Assembly (NCBI GenBank): GCA_018065465.1
Contig: JAGHTC010000009.1
Location: 9,484-73,483, forward strand
Reading direction: 5' to 3'
Source: Candidatus Ruminococcus equi
Lineage (GTDB): Bacteria > Bacillota > Clostridia > Oscillospirales > Acutalibacteraceae
DNA: 64,000 bases
Positions 1 to 56,238 of this stretch are shown piece after piece (positions within the stretch are counted from its first letter, which is position 1; each line of letters opens with the position of its first letter). Made by a program: the position numbers and the translations under genes. The notes under the pieces are model-generated. The model worked only from the letters and a program-made list of their open reading frames with translations, was not told the DNA's origin and did not search any database.

Positions 1-546
1 ATTGACGAGAATACGCCACTCAACCCGACTACTTTATACGGAAAAAGTAAGGCTGTGGCAGAGGAAAAACTTATTCCTCTTGAAGACGAAAATTTTACTG
101 TTTCGATTGTTCGTCCGCCAAATGTTTACGGAAAAAACTGCAAAGGCGGATATATCACTAATTTTACGGCAATCACAAGAAAAGTTCCTGTTATACCTAT
201 GGCTTTTGAAGATGCAAAGCAAAGTATGCTTTACATAGACAACCTTTGTGAACTTTGTCGGTTGATTGTTGAAAGCAAAGCGGCCGGAGTCTTTACGCCA
301 CAGGACGATATAAGTGTTTCCGCTGTAAAACTGATGGATTCCATTGGCAAAGGAATAGGTAAAAAAGTTAAATTTTCAAAGTTTTTCGGAAAATGCGTTA
401 CACCTTTTTTGGGAATATCTGTTGTAAAAAAAGTTTACGGCGGTTTGGAATATTCGAAAGAAAGCTCATCTTGTTTTGAAAATAAATATATAGTTGTTCC
501 TTTTGATGAAGCAATAATTCTTACTGTAAAACCTGATGAAAAGTAA
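1..546 (+). CDS. NAD-dependent epimerase/dehydratase (extended SDR), 5'-truncated by window edge
   Basis: Frame 1 is open from base 1 (IDENTPLNPTTLYGKSKAVAEEK); YxxxK motif YGKSK and 'IVRPPNVYG' are typical of extended SDRs. The track's start at 55 is internal. Confidence 0.85.
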   Translation: MDENTPLNPTTLYGKSKAVAEEKLIPLEDENFTVSIVRPPNVYGKNCKGGYITNFTAITRKVPVIPMAFEDAKQSMLYIDNLCELCRLIVESKAAGVFTPQDDISVSAVKLMDSIGKGIGKKVKFSKFFGKCVTPFLGISVVKKVYGGLEYSKESSSCFENKYIVVPFDEAIILTVKPDEK

Positions 547-607
547 TAGCAGATGTTTTCCTATTGATTTTATATGAAAGAATAAAGAAGGATGTTTTGG
601 AGGATAT

Positions 608-8496: not shown

Positions 8497-10017
8497 ATGA
8501 AACAAAGAAATGAAATAAAAAGCGGAGTAATACTGTCGTATGTATATCTGTCTATCGCGATGATAGCAGGCTTGCTCTATACTCCGCAGATGCTGAGAAT
8601 GATGGGGCAAAGCGAATACGGCTTGTATTCAATAGCAAATTCTGTTATCAGTTACCTGTCGTTTTTGGGACTCGGTCTGGAAAGTGCGTTGATAAAATAT
8701 ACGGCAAAATATATTGCGCTCGAAGACAAAGAATCCGAAAGAAAATTAGGCGGCGGATTCATAAAAGTATATCTTATCATTGCTGCGGTAACTTTGGTTT
8801 GCGGTTTTGTTCTTGCAAATAACCTCGGCTTTTTGTCACAAAATCTTACAGCAACAGAAGCATCTCGTTTGAGAATTATTGTAATGATTATGACTGTAAA
8901 CCTTGCCGTCAGTTTTCCAATGGGTGTTTTCGGTGCGGTAATTACGGCGCATGAAAGATTTACTTTCAGAAAAACAGTTGATATAATCCGTGAGATTACT
9001 CTTCCGATTACCATATTGGTTTTCTTATCAATGGGTTACAGAGCAATCGGTTTGGTTGTTATACATACGGTATTTAACTTTATCGTATTGATATCTAATT
9101 TCATTTATGCCAGAAAAGTATTAGGATATAAACCCATATTTGCAAAATTTGATATACCACTCATTAAAGAAATAACGGGATATACTGTGTTCATTTTTAT
9201 CGGAACAGTTGTTGACAGAATAAGTGATGCAACAAACAGTATGGTTATTGCTGCGGTGTCCGGCGCTGCCGCTGTTGCGGTATTCGGAGTCAGTATACAA
9301 ATATATGGGTATTATCTGAATTTTTCATCTTCAATCTCTACTTTCTTTTTCCCGAGAGTTGTCGGAATGACATATAAAAATGCAAGCGATGAAGAAGTTA
9401 CCGATTTGTTTATCAAAGTCGGCAGAGTGCAACTCTATGTTATTGCGTTAATTTGTAGTGGATTTATTGTTATCGGCAGAGATTTTATTAATCTTTGGGC
9501 AGGACCCGAGTATAGTATGGCGTACTATATTATTGTAGTTTTGATGGTACCTACGCTGATTAACAGAAGTCAGTCACTCGGTGTACAGATTTTGCAAGCG
9601 AGGAACAAGCATAAATTCAGGGCAATTTTATTCTTGTTTATTACTTTGTTGGATATAGGAATAAGTATTCCGCTTGCTATGATGTGGGATGGTTTAGGTG
9701 CTGCTATCGGTACATTTATCGCTACACTTATCGGCCCGATAATTATTATGAATATTTATTATTCAAAGAAAATGCATTTGGATATGAAAAGATATTGGAA
9801 AAGAACAATTCCGATACTCTTGCTTGTAGCGGTTCTTGTTGCACTGGGACTTTTAATGAACTATTTCTGGAAAGCAGACAACTGGATTGTATTGCTTGCA
9901 CAGGGACTAATTTATCTGGTTGTTTACGCTTTTGTAATGTATTTTATTGCATTTAATGATTATGAAAAGGGCTTAATTACGGGATTTATTTCCAAATTCA
10001 AAAGGAAAAAGGCGTAA
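8497..10017 (+). CDS. wzx: Oligosaccharide flippase (Wzx/MOP family)
   Basis: 506 aa, 12-14 hydrophobic segments, 'LGQSEYGLYS'-like N-terminus 'MGQSEYGLYSIANS'. Confidence 0.88.
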   Translation: MKQRNEIKSGVILSYVYLSIAMIAGLLYTPQMLRMMGQSEYGLYSIANSVISYLSFLGLGLESALIKYTAKYIALEDKESERKLGGGFIKVYLIIAAVTLVCGFVLANNLGFLSQNLTATEASRLRIIVMIMTVNLAVSFPMGVFGAVITAHERFTFRKTVDIIREITLPITILVFLSMGYRAIGLVVIHTVFNFIVLISNFIYARKVLGYKPIFAKFDIPLIKEITGYTVFIFIGTVVDRISDATNSMVIAAVSGAAAVAVFGVSIQIYGYYLNFSSSISTFFFPRVVGMTYKNASDEEVTDLFIKVGRVQLYVIALICSGFIVIGRDFINLWAGPEYSMAYYIIVVLMVPTLINRSQSLGVQILQARNKHKFRAILFLFITLLDIGISIPLAMMWDGLGAAIGTFIATLIGPIIIMNIYYSKKMHLDMKRYWKRTIPILLLVAVLVALGLLMNYFWKADNWIVLLAQGLIYLVVYAFVMYFIAFNDYEKGLITGFISKFKRKKA

Positions 10018-29920: not shown

Positions 29921-30811
29921 ATGGAAATTAACAAAAAAACATTTGACATTCTTGAACTTTTGAGTAATAATAGTAATTACTCACAACGAGAAATTTCGAA
30001 TGAACTCGGTATCAGCGTTGGCACTGTTAACAAGTATGTTGCCGAAATGACACAAGAAGGCTTGGTCTGTGACGGCAAGATTACAAAAAAGGGACTTAAT
30101 GCCTTAGAGCCGTACAGAGTTAAGCGTGCTGTGTTTATTGCTGCAGGCTTTGGCTCGCGACTTGTTCCTATTACGCTGAATACCCCGAAACCTCTTGTAA
30201 GGGTAAACGGCAAGAGAATTATCGACACTTTGCTTGATGCCGTTGTTGCCGCAGGGATTGAGGAAATTTACATTGTCAGAGGATATTTGGGCGAACAGTT
30301 CGACCAGTTAACCTACAAATATCCGATGATTAAATTTATCGAAAATCCTGTGTATAACGAAGCAAACAATATCAGTTCGGCTTCCTGTGCAAGTTATCTT
30401 TTGAAAAACGCCTATGTTTTGGAAGGCGACTTGATGCTCTACAATCCGAAACTGATAAAGAAATATCAATATCATTCAAACTACCTCGGTATCAAATGCG
30501 AGACCACCGACGACTGGTGTTTTAAGGTTAACGACAAAGGCATTATCAAAAAGATGGCTATCGGCGGAACGAAATGCTACCAGATGGTCGGTATATCCTA
30601 TTGGAATGAAACCGACGGCGCGAAACTTGTCGGTCATATCAAAAGCGTTTATCAGTCTCCGGGCGGTAAAGAACGCTACTGGGACCAGGTTGCTCTTGAA
30701 TATTTTATTGATGAATATGATGTTTATGTTCGAGAATGTCAGTTTGAAGATATAGTCGAAATCGATACATTCAACGAACTTAAGAAGCTTGACAAAACAT
30801 ACGATTTGTGA
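29921..30811 (+). CDS. Winged-HTH fused to a LicC-like (phosphocholine cytidylyltransferase-family) nucleotidyltransferase
   Basis: 'YSQREISNELGISVGTVNKYV' HTH, then 'AVFIAAGFGSRLVPITLNTPKPLVRVNG', 'NNISS', 'LEGD', 'EIDTFNEL'; no kinase domain. Confidence 0.85.
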   Translation: MEINKKTFDILELLSNNSNYSQREISNELGISVGTVNKYVAEMTQEGLVCDGKITKKGLNALEPYRVKRAVFIAAGFGSRLVPITLNTPKPLVRVNGKRIIDTLLDAVVAAGIEEIYIVRGYLGEQFDQLTYKYPMIKFIENPVYNEANNISSASCASYLLKNAYVLEGDLMLYNPKLIKKYQYHSNYLGIKCETTDDWCFKVNDKGIIKKMAIGGTKCYQMVGISYWNETDGAKLVGHIKSVYQSPGGKERYWDQVALEYFIDEYDVYVRECQFEDIVEIDTFNELKKLDKTYDL

Positions 30812-30870
30812 TGCTTGTTTCCTTTCTTTTTTAACGTTACGCGTTATAAATGGAAAGTCTCCAATAATAG

Positions 30871-30908
30871 TGCAAAGGCCACCCGCCAAAACCCGGGTGG
30901 CTTTTGTA
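30871..30908 (+). terminator. Hairpin/terminator downstream of the HTH-LicC gene
   Basis: CAAAGGCCACCCG-CCAAAACC-CGGGTGGCTTTTG. Confidence 0.7.
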
Positions 30909-30912
30909 TTTA

Positions 30913-31047
30913 GAAGAGCCGAGGTGCGAAGCCCTCAAATTACGACGGATGAGACGGGACTGTCCGAAGGACTTTGAAAAAGTCCGTAGGATGGTTAGTC
31001 GAATAGGAGTTATTTGAGGAACAGCGCAGCACAACGAGGCTTGACAT
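30913..31047 (+). repeat. Structured dispersed element, copy 1 (135 nt; ncRNA or REP/MITE-like)
   Basis: Homologous to 53228-53360(-): 32/40 identity at the 5' end, 38/43 at the 3' end, with compensatory changes in two helices. Confidence 0.85.
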
Positions 31048-31092
31048 AGAAGAACCGAGTCGCGAAACGAGGCTTGACATAGAAGAACCGAG
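31033..31092 (+). repeat. 27-bp direct repeat x2 (AACGAGGCTTGACATAGAAGAACCGAG), period 33
   Basis: Exact copies at 31033-31059 and 31066-31092 separated by TCGCGA. Confidence 0.95.
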
Positions 31093-31115
31093 CATCGCAG
31101 TGCGTTGCACTTCGT

Positions 31116-31170
31116 AATGAATGATTAATGATGAATAATGAATAATTAAGGGAAAATCGCTTCGCGATTT
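31116..31170 (+). repeat. Heptamer tandem array plus AAATCGC-TTC-GCGATTT hairpin
   Basis: AATGAAT GATTAAT GATGAAT AATGAAT AATTAAG, then GGAAAATCGCTTCGCGATTT; counterpart at 53179-53225(-). Confidence 0.8.
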
Positions 31171-31208
31171 ACGATTTATGTTTTCTTAACATTTAACACT
31201 TGTATATA

Positions 31209-31260
31209 CTCCCCCTCCGAAAAACCTAACGGTTTTCCGCATCCCCTCGCAAGGGGAGGC
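31209..31260. repeat. GC-rich REP-like double hairpin
   Basis: AAAACC-TAAC-GGTTTT and TCCCCT-CGCA-AGGGGA; single copy in the window. Confidence 0.45.
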
Positions 31261-31285
31261 TACAAGGTTTTTGAATTTATATTTT

Positions 31286-31320
31286 CTAAATACTAAAAAC
31301 TAAATACTAGGTACTACAAA
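31286..31320. repeat. Second heptamer array (CTA-N4 x5)
   Basis: CTAAATA CTAAAAA CTAAATA CTAGGTA CTACAAA. Confidence 0.7.
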
Positions 31321-31347
31321 AGGCTGTGACACTTGTCACAGCCTTTT
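31318..31347. terminator. Bidirectional palindromic terminator (GGCTGTGA family)
   Basis: AAAAGGCTGTGACA-CT-TGTCACAGCCTTTT, 6 nt beyond the stop of the minus-strand gene. Confidence 0.85.
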
Positions 31348-31353
31348 AAAAAA

Positions 31354-33438
31354 TCATTGTGTATAGATTTTGAAAGAATTGAAAGAAATTGTCATTGTGC
31401 GGTCATTTACATCTTCTTCCATTTCGCTTTCGTCGATATCATCAAAGTAGAAGTCGAGTGTTAATGTGCGGTTGGTCGGCATTATCTTTGTCGGAACAAG
31501 GACATTCAGCCCCGTGCTTTCGAGCGAACTGTCGATTTCTTCTTTGAAAATCTGTCTGCCGTTTGCTTCAATCGTACAGGTTGTTGGTTTGTCAACACTT
31601 TCAACTCCGAAGAAAACATGCAGGTCTATTGCATCTTTCGGAATGTTACTTATCGGAATGACCATCTGACCTCTCGGCCCTGCCATGGGAGTACGCCAGC
31701 CTGTTGTGTGCATAAAGCCCTCGGTGGTATAGAGGTTTGCCGTTGTATCCATATCAAACGAAAGCAAGGTTCCGAGCTTGTATTTTTCTACAACGCCGTT
31801 GTTGGTGTAGAAGCAGTCCATAAGTTCCATATTCTTGTACTTATCGGCAGAAGTTTTCAGCCTGTATTGCTCAACACGGGTATCTTTGTTTGCGCCTGCA
31901 TTAAGGAAGAAGTCTCTTTCTCTGCTTTCTTTTTCCTTAATGTCATAGTACGCTTTTCCCGAGCCGTATTCCGAGTAGGGTGCGTCGGTCAAAGTTTTTA
32001 CCAAAGTAGCGGGTAAATCAAAATGAGATACAGGAGCGGAAGAAGTTTTGTACCCGTGTTTTGCGCTTGCTTTCTTGATAAGAAGAACAGGATGTTGCAT
32101 AAGTTCCGTATCGCCGTGGTTAGCGGTTATGATGATAGTTGACTTGTCAAAGACACCGTTTTCTTTCATATTGTCTATCATATCAAAAAGATAGGTAAAG
32201 CAACCGTTAATCTGTTCATAAAGGTCTGTACCGTTCTCATCTTTTTGGGCGTCTTCTGTTAAAGTATAGGGTGCCTCGGCACCTTCAAGCGAGTAGATAC
32301 GCAGAGATTTGTCGTATTTATCGGTGTAGGTAAAGCCTTCTTTGTTTTTGTAATCTTCATAAAACTTTGCGTCGGATGAAGTATAGGTATTTTCGCTTTT
32401 ATAGTTATTAAACAGATTAGCGTCAGGCCAGAAGGGCATTTTAAGATAATGAGGCATATAAGTATATAATGTGTACTGGTATATGACCTTTGTCATAGCC
32501 TTGTATGCAGTGAAGTTTTCGGCTTGGCTGACAATATTTTCAACCGACTCCGTTGCACCTCTGCCGAAAAATGTTGATTCTGCGAAAATACGTGAGTCGA
32601 CATCATTATTTTTCAGCGTTAAGTATGCTGTATCACCGTCCCAGATATTGTCGATATAAGAACTGTATCTGCTTTCTTTTTTGTACGCCGTACCCGAAAG
32701 CATTGACGGGAGTGCTTCTATCTTACTTGCACCCGATGCAAGAGCGTTTGTATATTCTGTAAAGCAGTCAAGTTTTTCTTCATAATCTGGATGGTCTTCT
32801 TTGAAATCCTCAAAATACTTTTGGTCAAAAGAGTCCAGAATAAATACTACGGTATTTTTCTGATTGGAGAGTTCATACATACCGTCTGTTGTTACTTCAT
32901 AAGATGTTTTGTTGATAACATCACTGTTTTTGACAACAGTAACAGCAAGGGCAATACCCTGTACAATAATGAGCGTAAGCGAAGTGTAGATAAGTATTTT
33001 TCTCCATTGCTTTTTGAATACCATAATAAATGCAAACGGCAAAGCAAGGCACGCAGCCCACATAGCGGAGTCAATAGCGCCGTAGGTGGTGTAGTCCTCC
33101 CAAACGATTTTACTACCGTCAAGAACACCTGAGCCGTATTTTATGTTAAAGAAGTTACCCTGAATACAAAAGCCCAAAGCAAGCCCGAAAACAAGACAGC
33201 AAAGTGCTTTGTGAATAGCACTTTTCGGCAATGAACACACAAGGGTAGATAATACAAACGATACGACAAAAGCGACAGAAACGGGAACAAGCATCGAAAA
33301 GAAGCCAAACCAGAACTTGTCGTTATCTGCAATATAAAGATTCAGAGGACCGAAAAACACAAGCGAAAAAGTAAGAAAAAGGCTTACTGCTCCGCCGAGC
33401 ATAAATCGGTGCTTTAGTGAAAAATATTTATCATCCAT
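31354..33438 (-). CDS. Membrane protein with an extracellular sulfatase/alkaline-phosphatase-like (LTA-synthase-type) domain
   Basis: About 5 N-terminal TM segments, 'TVVFILDSFD', 'IIITANHG', 'PVLLIK', 'PVSHFDLPATL'. Start moved to ATG 33438 (GGAG upstream). Confidence 0.7.
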   Translation of the reverse strand: MDDKYFSLKHRFMLGGAVSLFLTFSLVFFGPLNLYIADNDKFWFGFFSMLVPVSVAFVVSFVLSTLVCSLPKSAIHKALCCLVFGLALGFCIQGNFFNIKYGSGVLDGSKIVWEDYTTYGAIDSAMWAACLALPFAFIMVFKKQWRKILIYTSLTLIIVQGIALAVTVVKNSDVINKTSYEVTTDGMYELSNQKNTVVFILDSFDQKYFEDFKEDHPDYEEKLDCFTEYTNALASGASKIEALPSMLSGTAYKKESRYSSYIDNIWDGDTAYLTLKNNDVDSRIFAESTFFGRGATESVENIVSQAENFTAYKAMTKVIYQYTLYTYMPHYLKMPFWPDANLFNNYKSENTYTSSDAKFYEDYKNKEGFTYTDKYDKSLRIYSLEGAEAPYTLTEDAQKDENGTDLYEQINGCFTYLFDMIDNMKENGVFDKSTIIITANHGDTELMQHPVLLIKKASAKHGYKTSSAPVSHFDLPATLVKTLTDAPYSEYGSGKAYYDIKEKESRERDFFLNAGANKDTRVEQYRLKTSADKYKNMELMDCFYTNNGVVEKYKLGTLLSFDMDTTANLYTTEGFMHTTGWRTPMAGPRGQMVIPISNIPKDAIDLHVFFGVESVDKPTTCTIEANGRQIFKEEIDSSLESTGLNVLVPTKIMPTNRTLTLDFYFDDIDESEMEEDVNDRTMTISFNSFKIYTQ

Positions 33439-51705: not shown

Positions 51706-53151
51706 TTATGCTAGTTTTTCAAGACCGATTTTCATTCTGTTAAGACTTTCTTCACGGCCTAAAATATCGAGTATTTCTACCGCTCCGCCGGGGGTTACCG
51801 TTTTTCCCGCTACGGAAATTCGAGCAGGCCACATAACGGTGCCGTTTTTGACTTCGAGTTTCTCTGAAAGAGAGATAAGCGCATCGTGGATACTGTCGTG
51901 GTCCCAAGAGGGTAAAGCGGACAGTTCATCAAAGACTGCTTTGAGCATAATCGGAGCGTTTTCGAAATTTGTTTTACTTTTCTTGTTAACAAAAAGTTCT
52001 TTGTCGTAGTCGGGAAGTTCCTTGAAGAAGTCAATTTTTTCTTCAATATCGGTGAGTTTTGTTGTTCTTTGTTGCAAAATTCCCGCAAGTTTTTTGTAGT
52101 CGATATCCAAGTCCCCCAAAGCCTTTTCAAAATACGGTTTTGCAACTTCGACAAACTCATCTTCGCTCATCGCTTTGATGTATTCGCCGTTGAACCACTC
52201 AAGTTTATCGTAATCAAATACGGCGGGGGATTTTGAGATACCGCTGATATCAAAAACTTTTGTCAGTTCATCAAGGGTGAATATTTCCGTGTTATCTTTC
52301 GGACACCAGCCCAAAAGCGCGATATAGTTTATTATCGCTTGTGGGAGATAGCCTTCGTTAATAAGGTCATAAAAACCTGTTGAGCCGTGGCGTTTTGAAA
52401 GTTTTGAAACATTACCGTCTGCGTCTTTGCCGTTAATCAAAGGCAGGTGGATATAGGTCGGAATTTCCCACGAAAAAGCCTCGTAAAGGAGGTTATATTT
52501 CGGTGTGGAACTCAGGTACTCCGAGCCACGAAGTACATGGGTAATGCCCATTGTATGGTCGTCGATTACATTTGCAAAATTATAGGTAGGGTAGCCGTCG
52601 GCTTTAATAAGAATCTGGTCTTGAAGTTCCTCGTTATCAACTGTGATTTCGCCGAAAACCGCATCGACAAAAGTTGTCTTTCCGGTAATCGGCATCTTTT
52701 GTCGTATTACATAGGGGACGCCTTGTGCTAACAATCTGTCTATTTCTTCTTGCGATAAATCGCGACAATGTCTGTCGTAGCCGCCGCCTACTGTTTCACT
52801 TTGGATTTTTTCCAGACGCTCTTTGGTGCAGAAACAACGGTATGCTTTGCCTTCTTTAATCAGTTGTTCGGCATAGGGAAGGTACATATCCTTACGTTCT
52901 GACTGAACATAGGGGCCGTAGTCACCGCCTACATCGGGGCCTTCGTCGTGAGTAAGTCCTGCTGTTTTCAGCGTTTCGTAGATAACATCGACAGCACCTT
53001 CGACAATGCGTTCCTGGTCGGTGTCTTCGATACGCAGGATAAATTTTCCGCCCTGCGATTTAGCAACGAGATATTCATATAAAGCCGTCCTGAGGTTTCC
53101 GACATGCATAAAACCTGTCGGTGACGGCGCAAACCGTGTTCTGACTTCCAT
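51706..53151 (-). CDS. gltX: Glutamate-tRNA ligase
   Basis: '[15 protein letters not shown]', 'RIEDTD', 'KLSKRHG'. Confidence 0.98.
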
Positions 53152-53178
53152 AATTTTTTCCTTTCAATACTATAATCA

Positions 53179-53225
53179 AAAATGCGAAGCATTTTCCCTT
53201 AATTATCAATTGTCAATTATCAATT
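53179..53225 (-). repeat. Heptamer array plus hairpin, counterpart of 31116-31170
   Basis: Minus strand AATTGAT AATTGAC AATTGAT AATTAAG GGAAAATGC-TTC-GCATTTT. Confidence 0.8.
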
Positions 53226-53227
53226 TG

Positions 53228-53360
53228 ATGTCAAGCCTCGTTTCGCTCCGCTGTTCTTGAAATAACTCCTGCTCTCGTGAATTTTTACACAGACTTTTGG
53301 TCTGCTCCAAAATTCATGGCTCGCCCGTCGTAATTTCAAGGCTACGCGACTTGGCTCTTC
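53228..53360 (-). repeat. Structured dispersed element, copy 2 (133 nt)
   Basis: Begins 4 nt after the secA stop; GAAGAGCC...CGAGGCTTGACAT ends shared with 30913-31047. Confidence 0.85.
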
Positions 53361-53364
53361 TTAT

Positions 53365-56238
53365 TCATTCATCCCGCCCGCAGCACTTCTTATATTTCTT
53401 TCCGCTTCCGCAGGGGCAGGGGTCGTTTCTGCCGACTTTCTTTTTCTTTACTACTGTTCTGTTTGTCGAAACAGTACCGTCACCCGAAAACTCAACGGGT
53501 TTTGCTACCTGCTCACGCTTTAATGCAAGTGTTACTGCGTTGGGCTTTTCAGCTTGTTCGCCGTTATTGAGGATAACCTGATGTGCGGCTGCTGCTTTTT
53601 GTTCCATTTCTTTTCTTTGTCGCTCAATTTCAGCCTGTCTTCTCTGGATTTCAAGTACGCGTTTAGGTGCAACAAGCATAAGTTTTGCAGTATCCTGACG
53701 GATGGATTCAACCATTTCGTCAAACATATCGAAGCCTTCTATTCTGTACTCAACAACGGGGTCATGCTGACCGTAAGCACGAAGTCTGATACCGTTTTTG
53801 AGTTGTTCCATATTGTCGATATGTTCCATCCAGTAGGTATCAACCGATTTGAGAAGATAGACACGCTCCATTTCGCGCATAGTATCATCATCAAAGAGAG
53901 CTTCGTTCTCTTTGTACATATCCATAGCACGGTTTGTTAAGGTGTCAATAAGGTCTTGTCTTGTTACCTCTTCAAGTTCGTCAACGGTAAACGAGAACTT
54001 GTTATCGTCAGTAATGAGCCAACCTCTGTAAAATTCGTTAAGTCCCGAGAGATTCCATTCGTCTTTTTGGATATCATCGGCACAGAACATATTTACATTA
54101 TTTTCTATTGTACTTTCAACCATCTTGATAATAGTATCGTGGATGTTTTCGCCGTTTAATACTTGGTCACGCTGACCGTAGATGATTTCACGCTGACGGT
54201 TCATAACATCGTCATAGTCAAGTACGGATTTACGAATAGCAAAGTTCCTTGATTCGACTTTTTGCTGTGAACTTTCGATAATGCTCGAAATGGTTTTGCT
54301 TTCAATCGGCATGGTTTCGTCTATGTTCATACGCTCCAAAATCATACCCATTCGCTCGCCGCCGAAAATACGCATAAGGTCGTCTTCGCATGAAAGGAAA
54401 AATCTCGACATACCGGGGTCACCCTGACGGCCTGAACGACCTCTCAACTGGTTATCAATACGGCGTGATTCGTGGCGTTCTGTACCGATAATGTAAAGAC
54501 CGCCTGCATCTCGAACTTTCTTTGCTTCTTCTTCGATTTCAACTTTATATTTGTCGTGATATTCGGAGAAAGTTTTTCTTGCATTTATAATATCTTCGTC
54601 ATCTGTATCAGCAAAGCCTGTTGCTTCGACTATGAGTTCTTCGTCAAAGCCTTCTTTACGCATAGCGGTCTTTGCCATATATTCGGCGTTACCGCCCAAA
54701 ACGATATCGGTACCACGACCTGCCATATTTGTAGCGATTGTTACAGCACCGTATTTACCCGCTTGGGCAACGATTTCGGCTTCTTTTTCGTGGTGTTTAG
54801 CGTTCAATACATTGTGGTCAATGCCCTGCTTTTTCAGCAGTTTTGAAAGTTGCTCGGATTTTTCAATTGAAATAGTACCGACAAGGACGGGCTGCCCTTT
54901 TTCGTGAGCCTCTTTTATCTCGTCAATAATGGCATAGAATTTACCTTTTTCGGTTTTGAATATAGCATCGGGGCAGTCGTCTCTGATGACTTCTTTGTTG
55001 GTGGGAATTTCAACAACATCAAGTCTGTATATCTCTTGAAATTCGGTTTCTTCGGTTTTTGCTGTACCTGTCATACCGGAAAGTTTCTTGTAAAGGCGGA
55101 AGAAATTTTGGAAAGTGATAGTCGCAAGAGTTTTTGACTCGCTTTCGACCTTAACGCCTTCTTTTGCTTCAATAGCCTGATGAAGTCCCTCGTTGTATCG
55201 CCTTCCGTACATAAGACGGCCTGTAAATTCGTCAACGATGATAACTTCGCCGTCTTTTACAACATAGTTTACTTCGTTTTTCATACAGCCGTAGGCTTTG
55301 ATAGCCTGGTTAACATGGTGCTGAATGGTGATATTTTCGGGGTCGGTGAGATTTTCAAGAGAGAAAAATTCCTCTGCTTTCTTAACGCCTACTTGGGTAA
55401 GAGTTGCTGTCTTTGCTTTCTCGTCAACAACATAGTCAATGTTGTTTTCCTTATAGAAAGATTCCATATCTTCTTTGTTGTCGATTTCGGTGAAGACATG
55501 CTTTTTGAGTCTTCTCGCAAAAGCGTCTGCTTTTTCGTACAAATCGGATGCTTTGTCACCTCTGCCCGAAATGATAAGAGGAGTTCTCGCTTCATCTATC
55601 AAAATGGAGTCAACCTCGTCGACGATGGCAAAAGCGTGTTCACGCTGAACTTTCTGTTCTTTATATACAACCATATTGTCACGAAGATAGTCAAAGCCGA
55701 GCTCGTTGTTTGTGCCGTAGGTGATATCGGCTTCATACATTTGTTTTCTCTCATCTGCGGGGACATCGTGGATAATAAGTCCGACAGAGAGTCCCAAGAA
55801 GCGATAGAGTTTTCCCATCCATTCGGAGTCACGCTTTGCAAGGTAGTCGTTGACGGTAACGATGTGAACGCCTTTACCTGTAAGACCGTTTAAGTATGCG
55901 GGCAAAGTAGCGACCAAAGTTTTACCTTCACCTGTTTTCATTTCGGCAATTCTGCCTTCGTGCAAAACGATACCGCCGATAATCTGAACGGGGAAGTGTT
56001 TCATACCGAGAACGCGGTACGATGCCTCTCGACAAACGGCAAAAGCGTCGGGCAGGATGTCGTCTGTTGTTTCTCCGTTTTTCAGTCTTTCTTTCAATAT
56101 ATCAGTTTGACTTTTAAGTTCTTTATCATCCATAGCCTGATATTTCGGCTCAAGTTCAAGTACCTTGTCGCAGATAGGCTGGATTTTTTTGAGTTCTCTT
56201 TTGGAGTAATCTCCGAACAATACTTTAAAAAGTCCCAT
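53365..56238 (-). CDS. secA: Preprotein translocase ATPase SecA
   Basis: 'MKTGEGKT', '[19 protein letters not shown]', '[11 protein letters not shown]', SEC-C '[13 protein letters not shown]'. Start moved to ATG 56238 (AAAGGA RBS). Confidence 0.98.

What the first reader, a model, noticed from the sequence alone, without database searches (positions are those of the whole stretch)
30913..31047. Unannotated ~135-nt structured element present twice with compensatory base changes (second copy 53228-53360, minus strand)
Seen: ends are conserved (32/40 and 38/43) while the ~50-nt middle is dissimilar, yet both copies fold alike. P1 AGCC/GGCT is invariant. P2 is GTGC/GCAC vs TCGC/GCGA and P3 is CCTCAAAT/ATTTGAGG vs CTTGAAAT/ATTTCAAG, giving four covarying pairs. 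P4 is GACTGTCC/GGATGGTT (three G.U pairs) vs TGAATTTT/AAAATTCA. The apical stem is GGACTTT-GAA-AAAGTCC vs CAGAC-CAAAA-GTCTG. A GA-rich internal loop next to P1 loosely resembles a kink-turn. Both copies are in the sense orientation of the upstream gene; copy 2 starts 4 nt after the secA stop, upstream of gltX. The wobble pairs favour the given strand, implying a single-stranded RNA or ssDNA function. Inference: a structured ncRNA/UTR motif or a non-autonomous HUH/REP-type mobile element under structural selection.
Basis: partly seen in the sequence, partly recalled or inferred. Interest (0 to 1): 0.88.

Follow-up and report, generated by a model that had tools for sequence, protein, structure and literature searches.

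The report
Mobile rod-shaped repeat of gut Ruminococcus
The two look-alike 135-base stretches are copies of an apparently undescribed small, non-coding, hairpin-forming mobile repeat that is scattered through Ruminococcus genomes (including the human gut starch degrader R. bromii and one of its prophages), keeps its fold through compensating mutations, and once inserted can be conserved more strictly than the neighbouring genes.

Summary
Copy 1 is 30912-31047 (+) and copy 2 is 53228-53361 (-). Both fold into the same rod-like hairpin, and the given strand folds much better than its complement.

Copy 1 is followed by a 33-nt mini copy and a truncated 5' copy. Rfam 15 has no match.

Pattern scans and a covariation model found about 30 more copies:
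- five in a related Ruminococcus MAG;
- many in Ruminococcus bromii: after tRNA-Ala and tRNA-Ile in the rRNA spacer, after the aspartokinase stop codon, and as the rarA 5' leader;
- one in an R. bromii prophage.

On 17 distinct copies, 95% of cells pair, against 31-47% when partners are slid. Fifteen of 31 pairs show double compensatory changes.

It is mobile:
- same-site alleles are empty, mini, full, or hold 1-3 tandem units;
- there is no target duplication and no proper terminal repeats;
- the left junction is exact and the right junction ragged;
- relatives have overlapping secA/gltX with no spacer.

The orthologous secA-gltX copy differs at 2 of 134 positions, against 20% at fourfold sites.

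Best reading: a new ERIC/REP/MITE-like structured repeat family that is co-transcribed and probably acts as an RNA hairpin module. An ssDNA, HUH-type mobility mechanism is possible but unproven.

The parts
30883..30909 (+). Intrinsic terminator of the upstream HTH/nucleotidyl-transferase gene (29921-30811). The array begins 2-3 nt after its T-tract.
30912..31047 (+). Full element, copy 1 ('type A' distal hairpin). It is a rod with P1 AGCC/GGCU, a GA-rich junction, P2 GUGC/GCAC, P3 CCUCAAAU/AUUUGAGG, the conserved loops UACGACGG..GAG and AGGAGUUAUUU, and a distal hairpin.
   Evidence: 126.6 bits, E 6e-29
31048..31080 (+). Mini copy. It keeps the 5' end and the 3' end (AGAAGAACCGAG-TCGC-GAAACGAGGCTTGACAT), and everything from P2 to the apex is deleted.
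   Evidence: D4; 26.7 bits, E 4e-4
31081..31113 (+). Truncated 5' copy (AGAAGAACCGAG...) that closes the array. The whole stretch 30909-31113 is absent from a contig of a related strain in a horse-gut metagenome.
   Evidence: joint 30908->31114
31114..31171 (+). Companion module: an AT-rich (ATGAATA/TGATAAT)-like run, then AATTAAGGGAAAAT, then the small hairpin AAAUCGC-UUC-GCGAUUU.
   Evidence: I6
53228..53361 (-). Full element, copy 2 ('type B' distal hairpin; P2 UCGC/GCGA, P3 CUUGAAAU/AUUUCAAG). It starts 3 nt after the secA stop codon. Its orthologue in MAG JAZLJE01 (L003) differs at 2 of 134 positions.
   Evidence: 138.4 bits
53179..53227 (-). Companion module after copy 2: an AT-rich (ATTGATA)n run, then AATTAAGGGAAAAT, then the hairpin AAAAUGC-UUC-GCAUUUU. 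The gltX ribosome-binding site and start codon follow. The hairpin stem differs by compensatory changes in the orthologue.
53149..53367 (-). The whole inserted block between the secA stop codon (53365-53367) and the gltX start codon (53149-53151). In relatives with about 85% GltX identity, secA and gltX overlap by 8 nt and there is no spacer.

Best explanation
SHOWN. The two stretches are copies of a family of small (about 133-137 nt), non-coding, interspersed repeats in the Ruminococcus bromii group and in one of its prophages.

Each unit folds on one strand into a rod. From base to tip it has:
- a 5-bp basal stem;
- a GA-rich asymmetric junction;
- a hypervariable but always complementary 4-bp stem;
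- a conserved A/U-rich stem;
- two conserved purine-rich internal loops (ACGAC.G..GAG opposite ..GAG..GGAGUUAUUU);
- an exchangeable distal hairpin, of which there are three types. The R. bromii type is capped by a G-N-A-A loop.

The element is mobile. The same site can be empty, hold a decayed mini copy, hold a full copy, or hold arrays of 1-3 units. There is no target-site duplication and no canonical terminal inverted repeat. The left junction is always exactly at AGAAGAGCC. The right junction is ragged, and often runs on into the first 18-38 nt of a further unit.

INFERRED.
(a) New copies are made as single-stranded copies that start at a fixed point (the ...GACAT | AGAAG... unit junction) and stop imprecisely, in a rolling-circle-like way. 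Unequal crossing-over between the repeated 5' parts then expands or collapses the arrays.
(b) Copies that land in the sense orientation inside transcription units are transcribed. They act in cis as a structured RNA module: a 5'- or 3'-terminal or inter-cistronic hairpin that punctuates or protects transcripts, probably through a protein that reads the conserved GA-rich loops. This would explain why a resident copy can be kept under purifying selection stronger than that on the flanking genes.
For: Multi-copy and widely distributed:
- 5 copies on 5 contigs of one Ruminococcus MAG, two of them at contig ends.
- 16 loci in human-gut metagenomes, which are R. bromii by their flanking proteins.
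- Depth over the element is roughly 8-17 times that of its flanks in horse-gut metagenomes.

Structure:
- On 17 distinct copies, 95.4% of cells pair, against 31-47% when partners are slid by 1-3 columns.
- 15 of 31 pairs carry double changes, against 3-6 in the slid controls. 0 of 500 shuffles reach the observed covariation score.
- Within R. bromii alone there is further covariation in the distal stems. The apical loop is G[C/G/U/A]AA, with only position 2 varying.
- All 18 copies fold 7-20 kcal/mol better on the given strand.

Mobility:
- Prophage family, same site: 13 empty, 34 mini (30-32 nt) and 1 full among 48 loci, with clean junctions GTTACA|...|CAATAAAA.
- R. bromii strains with an identical aspartokinase protein carry 0 full units (3 truly empty alleles), 1 internally deleted unit, or 1, 2 or 3 full units; every filled allele ends in a truncated unit. 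One cultured strain has only the truncated piece.
- The tRNA-Ala site in the rRNA spacer is empty, and the tRNA-Ile site holds a mini copy, in a cultured strain.
- The whole copy-1 array is missing in a metagenome contig.
- secA and gltX overlap by 8 nt in relatives, and 93 kb of those genomes hold no copy.

Transcription:
- RNA-derived contigs contain the element (X7).
- In a cultured R. bromii-like strain the element directly follows the promoter TTGACA-17-TACTAT and forms the 5' leader of the rarA mRNA contig.
- About 9 of 12 independent sites are sense to the local gene. The other three are ambiguous. None is clearly antisense inside an operon.

Selection:
- Window versus L003 aligns without gaps over 4308 nt.
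- Fourfold sites are 20% diverged (102 of 501). The element shows 2 of 134 differences, both in loops.
- It is the most conserved 134-nt window of the alignment. The binomial probability is 4e-11 against the fourfold rate.
- A second pair (L016 and L022) shows 1 of 134 differences against 5.3% at fourfold sites.
Against: - No read-level RNA data were available. Contig depth says nothing about RNA ends, abundance or processing, and DNA contamination of the RNA libraries cannot be excluded.
- Window copy 1 lies behind an intrinsic terminator, so it is probably barely transcribed.
- Copies are dispensable at several loci, where strains with empty alleles exist.
- The features used to argue for RNA also occur in stable single-stranded DNA hairpins: G.U pairs, tandem G.A, a GNRA-like loop and strand asymmetry.
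- In Firmicutes the sense strand of most genes is also the lagging-strand template. Orientation therefore cannot separate transcription from replication. The window's cumulative GC skew flattens near 44 kb, so the two oppositely oriented copies could lie on either side of a terminus.
- Concerted evolution or re-insertion at the same site could mimic purifying selection. The locus-specific P2/P3 variant shared by both orthologues argues against this.
- No transposase or nicking enzyme was identified.
- The covariation rests on few independent lineages: three distal types and about six P2 variants.
Confidence: 0.5

Rival explanations
1. A purely DNA-level element. The hairpin would matter only as single-stranded DNA, as the recognition or nicking substrate of an HUH enzyme: an IS200/IS605 Y1 transposase, a RAYT, an IS91/Helitron-like Rep, or a phage or plasmid rolling-circle Rep. 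Alternatively it could be a single-strand-origin-like priming site. Transcripts through it would be incidental and the RNA would have no role.
For: - No target-site duplication and no terminal inverted repeats. The left junction is exact and the right junction ragged. Inserts are n-plus-a-fraction units in five independent loci, and repeated insertion at the same left junction gives arrays.
- The fold is strand-specific.
- The only phage copy lies 230 nt upstream of an HUH rolling-circle Rep gene and on the same strand (PF23343, phrog_3584). That is where a single-strand origin would lie.
- The 5' base shares GCCGAG with the ssoA RSB sequence TTATGCCGAGAAAATTT (PMC4598088).
- Orientation is equally compatible with the lagging-strand template.
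Against: - Only 1 of 48 related phages has the full copy and 13 have none, so it is not their origin.
- There is no CS-6 motif in the apex and no similarity to any plasmid in PLSDB.
- Left flanks vary (ATAT, AATA, TAAT, ATTT, TCGT, TACA), whereas IS200/IS605 elements use a fixed target.
- There is no GTAG REP head.
- A rough tblastn probe found no Y1 transposase in the 619 kb held.
- A selfish DNA role does not explain 2 of 134 differences against 20% neutral divergence at a fixed orthologous site.
- It also does not explain retention of an element as the rarA leader in several R. bromii lineages.
Confidence: 0.25
2. A trans-acting small RNA. The roughly 135-nt rods would be cut out of many precursors (after tRNAs, from UTRs). 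Together they would act as a stable RNA that binds or sequesters a protein through the repeated GA-rich and GGA-containing loops, or through K-turn-like motifs.
For: - Unpaired nucleotides are almost invariant while stems covary.
- Copies start 3 nt after the tRNA CCA ends and at a transcription start. Several loci would therefore yield the same 5' end.
- There are four tandem or separated G.A motifs along the rod, and a GNRA-type cap.
Against: - There is no terminator or defined 3' end.
- Copy number and sites differ between strains, and one cultured strain has only about 2 full copies.
- The three distal hairpin types are unrelated in sequence.
- There is no evidence for a discrete RNA species. 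Only contigs were available.
Confidence: 0.1
3. A gene-specific cis-regulatory leader (riboswitch, T-box or attenuator), for example one controlling gltX.
For: Copy 2 lies upstream of gltX and is followed by a small hairpin with a U-run. One R. bromii copy is a 5' leader.
Against: - The same element occurs after tRNAs in the rRNA spacer, after stop codons between convergent genes, behind a terminator, and in a prophage.
- There is no consistent downstream gene.
- There is no Rfam hit at E<=10, T-box included.
- Relatives have overlapping secA/gltX and no leader at all.
Confidence: 0.03
4. Chance similarity, or a simple local duplication, with no family behind it.
For: Only two full copies are present in the 64-kb window.
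Against: - More than 30 further copies were found in other genomes, a prophage and metagenomes.
- The covariation controls are met.
- Folding z-scores are -4.3 to -6.4.
Confidence: 0.01

Closest known systems
ERIC / IRU elements of Enterobacteriaceae (about 127-bp imperfect palindromes)
   Same: - Similar size.
- Non-coding, imperfect-palindrome rod located in intergenic parts of transcription units.
- Shorter and longer variants arise by internal deletion or insertion.
- Presence or absence varies at orthologous sites.
- The fold is kept by compensatory change, and the mobility mechanism is unknown.
(The description of ERIC is from my own knowledge of the literature, not tested here.)
   Different: - No sequence similarity, and a different phylum.
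- A marked one-strand bias, whereas ERICs occur in both orientations.
- Tandem arrays that end in a truncated 5' unit.
- Modular distal hairpins.
- Copies directly after tRNA genes and in a prophage.
REP/BIME elements with RAYT (TnpA-REP), and IS200/IS605-derived PATEs (HUH Y1 transposases)
   Same: - Hairpin-forming, strand-specific repeats without a target-site duplication.
- They are thought to move as single-stranded DNA.
- Clusters or arrays form at one site.
   Different: - REPs are 20-40 nt with a 5' GTAG head, and BIMEs are inverted pairs.
- PATEs carry two subterminal hairpins and insert 3' of a fixed 4-5-nt target.
- None of these features was found here. No RAYT or TnpA gene was seen in the sequence held.
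Classical bacterial MITEs that are co-transcribed and processed (Correia/NEMIS, RUP, BOX, bcr1)
   Same: Small, non-autonomous, multi-copy and intergenic. They fold as RNA, affect neighbouring transcripts and mediate rearrangements. Here, an inversion bounded by two copies is seen between L016 and L022.
   Different: Those elements have clear terminal inverted repeats and a TA or short target duplication, or a boxA/B/C module order. This element has neither a TIR nor a TSD.
Rolling-circle transposons (IS91/ISCR, Helitrons) and single-strand origins (ssoA) of rolling-circle plasmids
   Same: - One exact end and one imprecise end, with read-through or tandem products.
- No TIR or TSD.
- A structured, orientation-specific single strand.
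- One copy lies next to a prophage HUH Rep gene.
- The 6-nt motif GCCGAG is shared with the ssoA RSB sequence.
   Different: - No Rep or transposase is linked to the chromosomal copies.
- There is no IS91 target (GTTC/CTTG) and no Helitron 5'-TC...CTRR-3' ends.
- There is no CS-6 loop motif and no match to plasmids.
- The element is not conserved in the phage family.
Kink-turn and other tandem-G.A RNA motifs
   Same: The P1/P2 junction has 5'-GA-3' opposite 5'-GA-3' next to a 3-nt bulge (AAC/UAC) on the 3' strand. Two further GA/GA oppositions lie in the upper loops.
   Different: - An extra unpaired G lies between the G.A pairs and the P2 stem.
- Copy 2 has AAG instead of GAG.
- No 3-D or protein-binding evidence exists, so this is a resemblance only.

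Membership tests
Any Rfam 15 family (including HEARO, IS605-orfB motifs, group II intron domains, hairpin/twister/hatchet ribozymes, T-box, SRP and 6S) | A covariance-model match at or near the family's gathering score | tested here: not met
   There are 0 matches at gathering score in the window. At E<=10 on 30700-31400 and 53000-53600 only chance-level sub-threshold hits overlap the element (best mir-8186, 22 bits against a gathering score of 80). For the R. bromii copies only the flanking tRNAs match.
Classical MITE | Terminal inverted repeats matching an IS family | tested here: not met
   The ends are AGAAGAGCC... and ...GGCTTGACAT. Only the 5-bp P1 stem and the 4-bp P2 stem pair, and they are interrupted by asymmetric loops. 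The L002 subfamily has different tails but keeps P1.
Classical MITE | Target-site duplication flanking the insert | tested here: not met
   Empty versus filled alleles show no duplication. In the phage the site is GTTACA|CAATAAAA. In R. bromii ask it is TAAT|AACT.
Classical MITE | Small, non-coding, multi-copy, and present or absent between strains | tested here: met
REP / RAYT | A 20-40-nt palindrome with a conserved 5' GTAG, and an associated RAYT gene | tested here: not met
   The unit is about 134 nt and has no terminal GTAG. A rough tblastn probe with Y1 transposases found nothing in 619 kb. Whole genomes could not be searched.
IS200/IS605-derived PATE | Insertion 3' of a fixed tetra- or pentanucleotide, with subterminal hairpins at both ends | tested here: not met
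   Left flanks differ between sites (ATTT, AATA, ATAT, TCGT, TAAT, TACA, AAAC). The unit is one long rod, not two end hairpins.
IS91/Helitron-like rolling-circle element | One precise end and one imprecise end with read-through or tandem products, and no TSD | tested here: met
   The 5' junction is exact at every site. A truncated next unit trails the full copy in five loci. Arrays of 1-3 units exist.
IS91/Helitron-like rolling-circle element | A linked HUH Rep/transposase, and the family's end and target motifs | tested here: inconclusive
   Only one copy lies near an HUH Rep gene, in a prophage. 47 related phages lack the full copy. No IS91 or Helitron end motifs are present. Co-occurrence across genomes could not be tested.
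ssoA-type single-strand origin | RSB (TTATGCCGAGAAAATTT) at the base and CS-6 (TAGCGT) in the terminal loop, on a rolling-circle replicon | tested here: not met
   Only GCCGAG is shared and there is no CS-6 in the apex. There is no PLSDB match. Most copies are chromosomal.
Integron attC site | R''/R' core sites (RYYYAAC ... GTTRRRY) flanking a structured bottom strand, in cassette arrays | tested here: not met
   No GTTRRRY or RYYYAAC cores are present at the ends. The contexts are tRNA spacers and UTRs, not cassette arrays.
Structured RNA under selection (the generic criterion) | Covariation above controls, strand asymmetry, and conservation beyond the neutral rate | tested here: met
   covariation; 18 of 18 copies fold better on the given strand; orthologue conservation
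Kink-turn | C-stem, then a 3-nt bulge, then tandem sheared G.A/A.G, then an NC-stem, with the -1b/-1n pair directly adjacent | tested here: inconclusive
   The sequence pattern is present except for one extra unpaired G on the non-bulged strand. Shifting the register breaks P2. No structural test was possible.

The most novel reading that the evidence does not exclude
The element could be a new kind of bacterial micro-transposon. It would be copied from a fixed nick at the unit junction by a rolling-circle (HUH) enzyme supplied in trans, for example by prophages. That would explain the exact 5' ends, the n-plus-a-fraction inserts, and the absence of TIR and TSD. Its single-strand hairpin would then be co-opted as a structured RNA module after insertion: GNRA-capped, with K-turn-like and tandem-G.A loops read by a host protein. 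This module would punctuate tRNA, rRNA and mRNA precursors in a keystone gut bacterium.
Probability: 0.2. Interest if true: 0.75.

Novelty: new member of a known kind. Interest (0 to 1): 0.55.

Why it matters
Ruminococcus bromii is a keystone starch degrader of the human gut, and its relatives are abundant in horse and ruminant guts.

- The repeat creates strain-level structural variation. Arrays hold 0-3 units, an inversion is bounded by two copies, and a 230-nt block split the overlapping secA/gltX pair and rewrote both gene ends.
- It breaks short-read assemblies.
- It is shared with a prophage.

It also offers a compact, naturally replicated test case. There are three exchangeable distal hairpins on one conserved base. 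The 4-bp P2 stem takes at least five complementary variants; a sixth has one G.G mismatch. Mini, full and empty alleles occur at the same site. This lets one ask how a selfish hairpin becomes a conserved RNA part of host transcripts, and what enzyme moves repeats that lack both TIR and TSD. That second question is still open for ERIC-type elements.

Tried and rejected
- **Rfam.** Searched at gathering score and at E<=10 on both window loci and on an R. bromii locus. Nothing was found.
- **BLAST against phage and plasmid collections.** One 'phage' hit, MT838463, is really an R. bromii chromosomal fragment. There was no plasmid hit.
- **Promoter idea.** The element ends in TTGACA, the -35 consensus, but no -10 box lies at the right distance in any locus, and the promoter scan finds nothing.
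- **Small ORF idea.** The AGGAG-N4-TTG in copy 1 is not conserved in copy 2, which has TTC. Rejected.
- **T-box or riboswitch for gltX.** Rejected on context, and because relatives have no spacer.
- **Aspartokinase-locus selection test (L017 vs L021).** Uninformative. The gene is a recombination mosaic and the local neutral divergence is only about 1-2%.
- **Transcription versus replication.** The opposite orientation of the two window copies could not separate the two, because the GC-skew profile does not exclude a terminus between them.
- **Y1-transposase probe.** Used approximate sequences from memory and found no hit in 619 kb. This is a weak negative.
- **Literature.** Full-text searches for the end sequences and for Ruminococcus MITEs or repeats found no description. 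One survey (PMC11602168) mentions MITEs shared by Ruminococcus and viruses without details, and no supplement is held.
- **RNA runs for the window's own organism.** None are served. Only assembled contigs of one horse metatranscriptome and of cultured-strain transcriptomes could be used, so no RNA ends could be read.
Full report
**1. The observation**

Reading both loci and aligning them confirms two full copies. Copy 1 is 30912-31047 on the + strand and copy 2 is 53228-53361 on the - strand.

- The repeat finder reports the two conserved ends as inverted pairs: 42 nt at 81% and 43 nt at 88%. The middles are dissimilar.
- Each copy folds into the same long rod. Copy 1 folds at -52.0 kcal/mol (z -6.4) and copy 2 at -41.8 kcal/mol (z -4.3). 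None of 200 shuffles does as well.
- The complementary strands reach only -33.3 and -34.7 kcal/mol.

- Copy 1 heads a tandem array. After the full unit come a 33-nt mini unit at 31048-31080, which keeps only the two ends, and a truncated 5' unit at 31081-31113.
- Both copies are followed by a second shared module: an AT-rich run, then AATTAAGGGAAAAT, then a small hairpin.

Copy 1 begins 2-3 nt after the intrinsic terminator of an HTH/nucleotidyl-transferase gene and lies between convergent genes. Copy 2 begins 3 nt after the secA stop codon and lies upstream of gltX.

**2. It matches no described RNA family**

Rfam 15 gives nothing at gathering score for the window. At E<=10 on either locus only chance-level, sub-threshold hits overlap the element. 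For R. bromii copies only the neighbouring tRNAs are recognised. Full-text searches for the end sequences and for Ruminococcus repeats found no description.

**3. It is a family**

- A loop-anchored pattern found five copies on five contigs of one Ruminococcus MAG, JAZLJE01. Two of them lie at contig ends.
- An end-anchored pattern found 16 loci in human-gut metagenomes. Their flanking proteins are named Ruminococcus bromii aspartate kinase and RarA.
- One copy lies in an IMG/VR viral contig.
- A covariation model built from 17 distinct copies recovers all of them at 105-156 bits. It also finds the window's mini copy and no further full copy in the window.
- In horse-gut metagenomes the depth over the element is roughly 8-17 times that of its flanks. 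One cultured R. bromii-like strain has only about two full copies, one mini and one truncated piece.

Contexts in R. bromii:
- 3 nt after the CCA end of tRNA-Ala, and again 3 nt after tRNA-Ile, in the 16S-23S spacer;
- directly after the aspartokinase stop codon;
- directly after a promoter (TTGACA, 17 nt, TACTAT), as the 5' leader of rarA;
- next to trkA.

**4. Anatomy and covariation**

All copies share:
- a 5' tail AGAAG;
- P1, AGCC/GGCU, extended by A-U and G.U pairs;
- an asymmetric junction, GAG opposite (A/U)ACGA;
- a 4-bp P2 that is different in almost every lineage yet complementary: GUGC/GCAC, UCGC/GCGA, UGUC/GGCA, UGCC/GGCA, GUUC/GAAC;
- a 3x3 loop G-N-A/G-N'-A. In one subfamily this is replaced by a continuous helix, UGUAC/GUACA;
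- P3, with an invariant AAAU/AUUU core and a covarying outer part;
- two nearly invariant purine-rich loops;
- a distal hairpin in three unrelated versions.

On the 17-sequence alignment:
- 95.4% of cells form standard pairs, against 31-47% when partners are slid by 1-3 columns;
- 15 of 31 pairs carry changes on both sides, against 3-6 in the slid controls;
- no shuffle out of 500 reaches the observed covariation score.

Within R. bromii alone the distal stems covary (CG/AU, CG/UA, CG/UA). The apical loop reads G[C/G/U/A]AA, with only the second position varying.

All 18 copies tested fold 7-20 kcal/mol better on the given strand. The junction next to P1 resembles a kink-turn, with tandem G.A next to a 3-nt bulge. 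It has an extra unpaired G, and copy 2 even has AAG. This remains a resemblance only.

**5. It is mobile**

(a) Prophage family. Among 48 closely related prophage loci (Rep protein 93-100% identical), the same site is:
- empty in 13 (GTTACA|CAATAAAA);
- occupied by a 30-32-nt mini hairpin in 34 (AGAAGAGCCGAGGCAACGGCTCGACATATTG);
- occupied by the full element in one.

The junctions are clean and there is no duplication.

(b) Aspartokinase locus. Among ten R. bromii contigs that encode an identical aspartokinase:
- three are truly empty (TAAT|AACT);
- one holds an internally deleted unit;
- three hold one unit, two hold two units and one holds three units.

Every filled allele ends in a truncated 5' piece of 28 nt. 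A cultured strain has only that piece.

(c) rRNA spacer. In that cultured strain the tRNA-Ala site is empty and the tRNA-Ile site holds a 57-nt mini copy.

(d) Window copy 1. A horse-gut metagenome contig lacks the whole array 30909-31113.

(e) secA-gltX. In relatives whose GltX is about 85% identical, secA and gltX overlap by 8 nt (ATGAGTAA). There is no spacer, and 93 kb from those genomes hold no copy. In the window's lineage a block of about 215-230 nt (the element, the AT-rich run, the hairpin and a new ribosome-binding site) therefore entered the overlap. It shortened SecA's C-terminus and replaced the gltX start.

Across all sites the left junction is exactly at AGAAGAGCC, or at the variant TTTGTGCGTCGAG in one subfamily. 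The right junction is ragged. It ends at GACAT plus a few nucleotides, or runs on into the first 18-38 nt of another unit (window copy 1, L002, the ask locus, the rarA locus, L016b). Left flanks are AT-rich but not constant.

This pattern fits neither cut-and-paste MITEs nor IS200/IS605 or REP elements. It is what a copy process with a fixed start and imprecise stop (rolling-circle-like) would leave. Unequal exchange between the repeated 5' parts would then give the arrays. This last step is inference.

**6. Selection**

The MAG locus L003 is the orthologue of the window's secA-gltX region. The two align without gaps over 4308 nt at 92.7% identity.

- Fourfold-degenerate sites are 20% diverged (102 of 501).
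- The 76-nt remainder of the spacer has 12 differences.
- The element has 2 differences in 134 positions, both in unpaired positions.
- It is the most conserved 134-nt window of the whole alignment. The mean is 9.7 differences per window.
- The binomial probability is 4e-11 against the fourfold rate, and 0.003 against the overall rate.

Both orthologues share a P2/P3 variant not seen in the MAG's other four copies. That argues against homogenisation from other copies. The small downstream hairpin changes its stem compensatorily.

A second pair (L016 and L022) shows 1 of 134 differences against 5.3% at fourfold sites. A third comparison at the aspartokinase locus was uninformative, because the gene is a recombination mosaic.

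**7. Transcription and orientation**

- RNA-derived contigs contain the element: a horse metatranscriptome and the transcript contig that carries the rarA leader in the cultured strain.
- Only assembled contigs were available, so nothing can be said about ends or abundance.
- Of about twelve independent sites, nine are sense to the local gene or tRNA. Three are ambiguous (L002, L005, and L016b in the L016 arrangement). None is clearly antisense inside an operon.
- In Firmicutes the sense strand is usually also the lagging-strand template. The window's cumulative GC skew flattens near 44 kb. The opposite orientation of the two window copies therefore cannot separate transcription from replication.

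**8. Interpretation**

Shown: this is a new, mobile, one-strand-structured, non-coding repeat family of the R. bromii group and one of its prophages.

Most likely (about 0.5): copies in sense orientation are co-transcribed and serve as a cis-acting RNA hairpin module at 5' ends, at 3' ends and between cistrons or tRNAs. A protein probably reads the conserved GA-rich loops. This would explain the locus-specific purifying selection, the retention of a copy as the rarA leader, and the RNA-like features (G.U pairs, GNRA-type cap, tandem G.A).

Main rival (about 0.25): the hairpin matters only as single-stranded DNA for an HUH-type enzyme or as a priming site.
- For it: the junction pattern, and one copy that lies 230 nt upstream of a prophage rolling-circle Rep gene on the same strand.
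- Against it: 47 of 48 related phages lack the full copy. Only GCCGAG is shared with the ssoA RSB sequence, and there is no CS-6. There is no plasmid match. No Y1 transposase was found in 619 kb. A selfish DNA role also does not explain the conservation at a fixed site.

The two readings are not exclusive. One concerns how the element moves and the other what it does once inserted.

**9. Comparison with known systems, and verdict**

It works most like ERIC/IRU elements, and like other co-transcribed repeats such as Correia, BOX, RUP and bcr1. It is not a member of any of these families, nor of REP/RAYT, IS200/IS605 PATEs, attC sites, ssoA origins or any Rfam family. The membership table lists the features tested.

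It is therefore a new member of a known kind: structured bacterial interspersed repeats. It has unusual traits, namely no TIR or TSD, an exact 5' junction with a ragged 3' junction, a one-strand bias, modular distal hairpins, and very strong conservation of a resident copy. Interest is moderate to good (0.55).

Noticed in passing
window 31114-31171 (+) and 53179-53227 (-); also L001 6900-6933, L003 2641-2690, L004 about 420-594 (-): A second repeated module travels with the element in the horse-type lineage: an AT-rich heptad-like run ((ATTGATA)n or ATGAATA), then AATTAAGGGAAAAT, then a small A/U-rich hairpin with a 2-3-nt loop (AA, AAT or TTC). The hairpin stem differs by compensatory changes between the window and L003. 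In L001 the module lies upstream of the element instead of downstream.
   Followed up: partly
window 31243-31259; L004 497-513: A G/C hairpin motif, CCCCT(C/T)G(C/T)(A/C)AGGGGAGG, occurs about 200 nt downstream of copy 1. It occurs again near the element in the related MAG. This may be a third small repeat family.
   Followed up: partly
window 31296-31373: A sub-threshold Rfam hit to uxuA RNA (32.4 bits against a gathering score of 66.8, E 2.6e-4). It is most likely just the strong hairpin AAAAGGCUGUGACACUUGUCACAGCCUUUU, which would terminate the convergent 700-aa gene.
   Followed up: no
window 53149-53367 versus L024-L028 around position 10000: The insertion split an overlapping secA/gltX pair. 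The SecA C-terminus is ...KKCCGRDE* here and ...KKCCKLKDEGYTNE* in relatives. GltX starts MEVRTRF here and MSNVRTRF in relatives, and it has acquired its own ribosome-binding site.
   Followed up: yes
L016 22-154 (-) and 7525-7658 (+); L022 2763-2896: R. bromii strains differ by an inversion of about 7.4 kb bounded by two inverted element copies. L022, deposited as an 'unverified bacteriophage' contig (MT838463), is a chromosomal fragment in the inverted arrangement, joining trkA to rarA through a hybrid copy.
   Followed up: partly
L017 10727-11932 versus L021 (aspartokinase gene): The gene is a recombination mosaic between strains. The first ~700 nt are about 60% identical and the last ~500 nt are 98-99% identical, as are the downstream element and terminator.
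   Followed up: partly
L023/L029 (IMGVR_UViG_3300045988_163653), rep gene at L023 1683-2435: This R. bromii prophage family encodes an HUH rolling-circle replication initiator (PF23343, phrog_3584; HIHII and YxxK motifs) next to a small terminase subunit. The same Rep protein occurs on contigs of up to 2.3 Mb, so the phage is integrated in R. bromii-sized genomes.
   Followed up: partly
window 1-30800: There are 24 consecutive + strand genes with low G+C (35-37% over most of the cluster, against 40-44% further on) and strong positive GC skew (+0.10 to +0.18 up to about 24 kb). This looks like a large surface-polysaccharide-type gene cluster. The cumulative GC skew levels off near 44 kb, so a replication terminus inside the window is possible.
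   Followed up: no
L084 2708-3108: Within one three-unit array, unit 1 differs from units 2-3 by a compensated pair in the apical stem (AUUAC/GUAAU versus AUCAC/GUGAU). The stem is thus kept paired even between neighbouring units.
   Followed up: no
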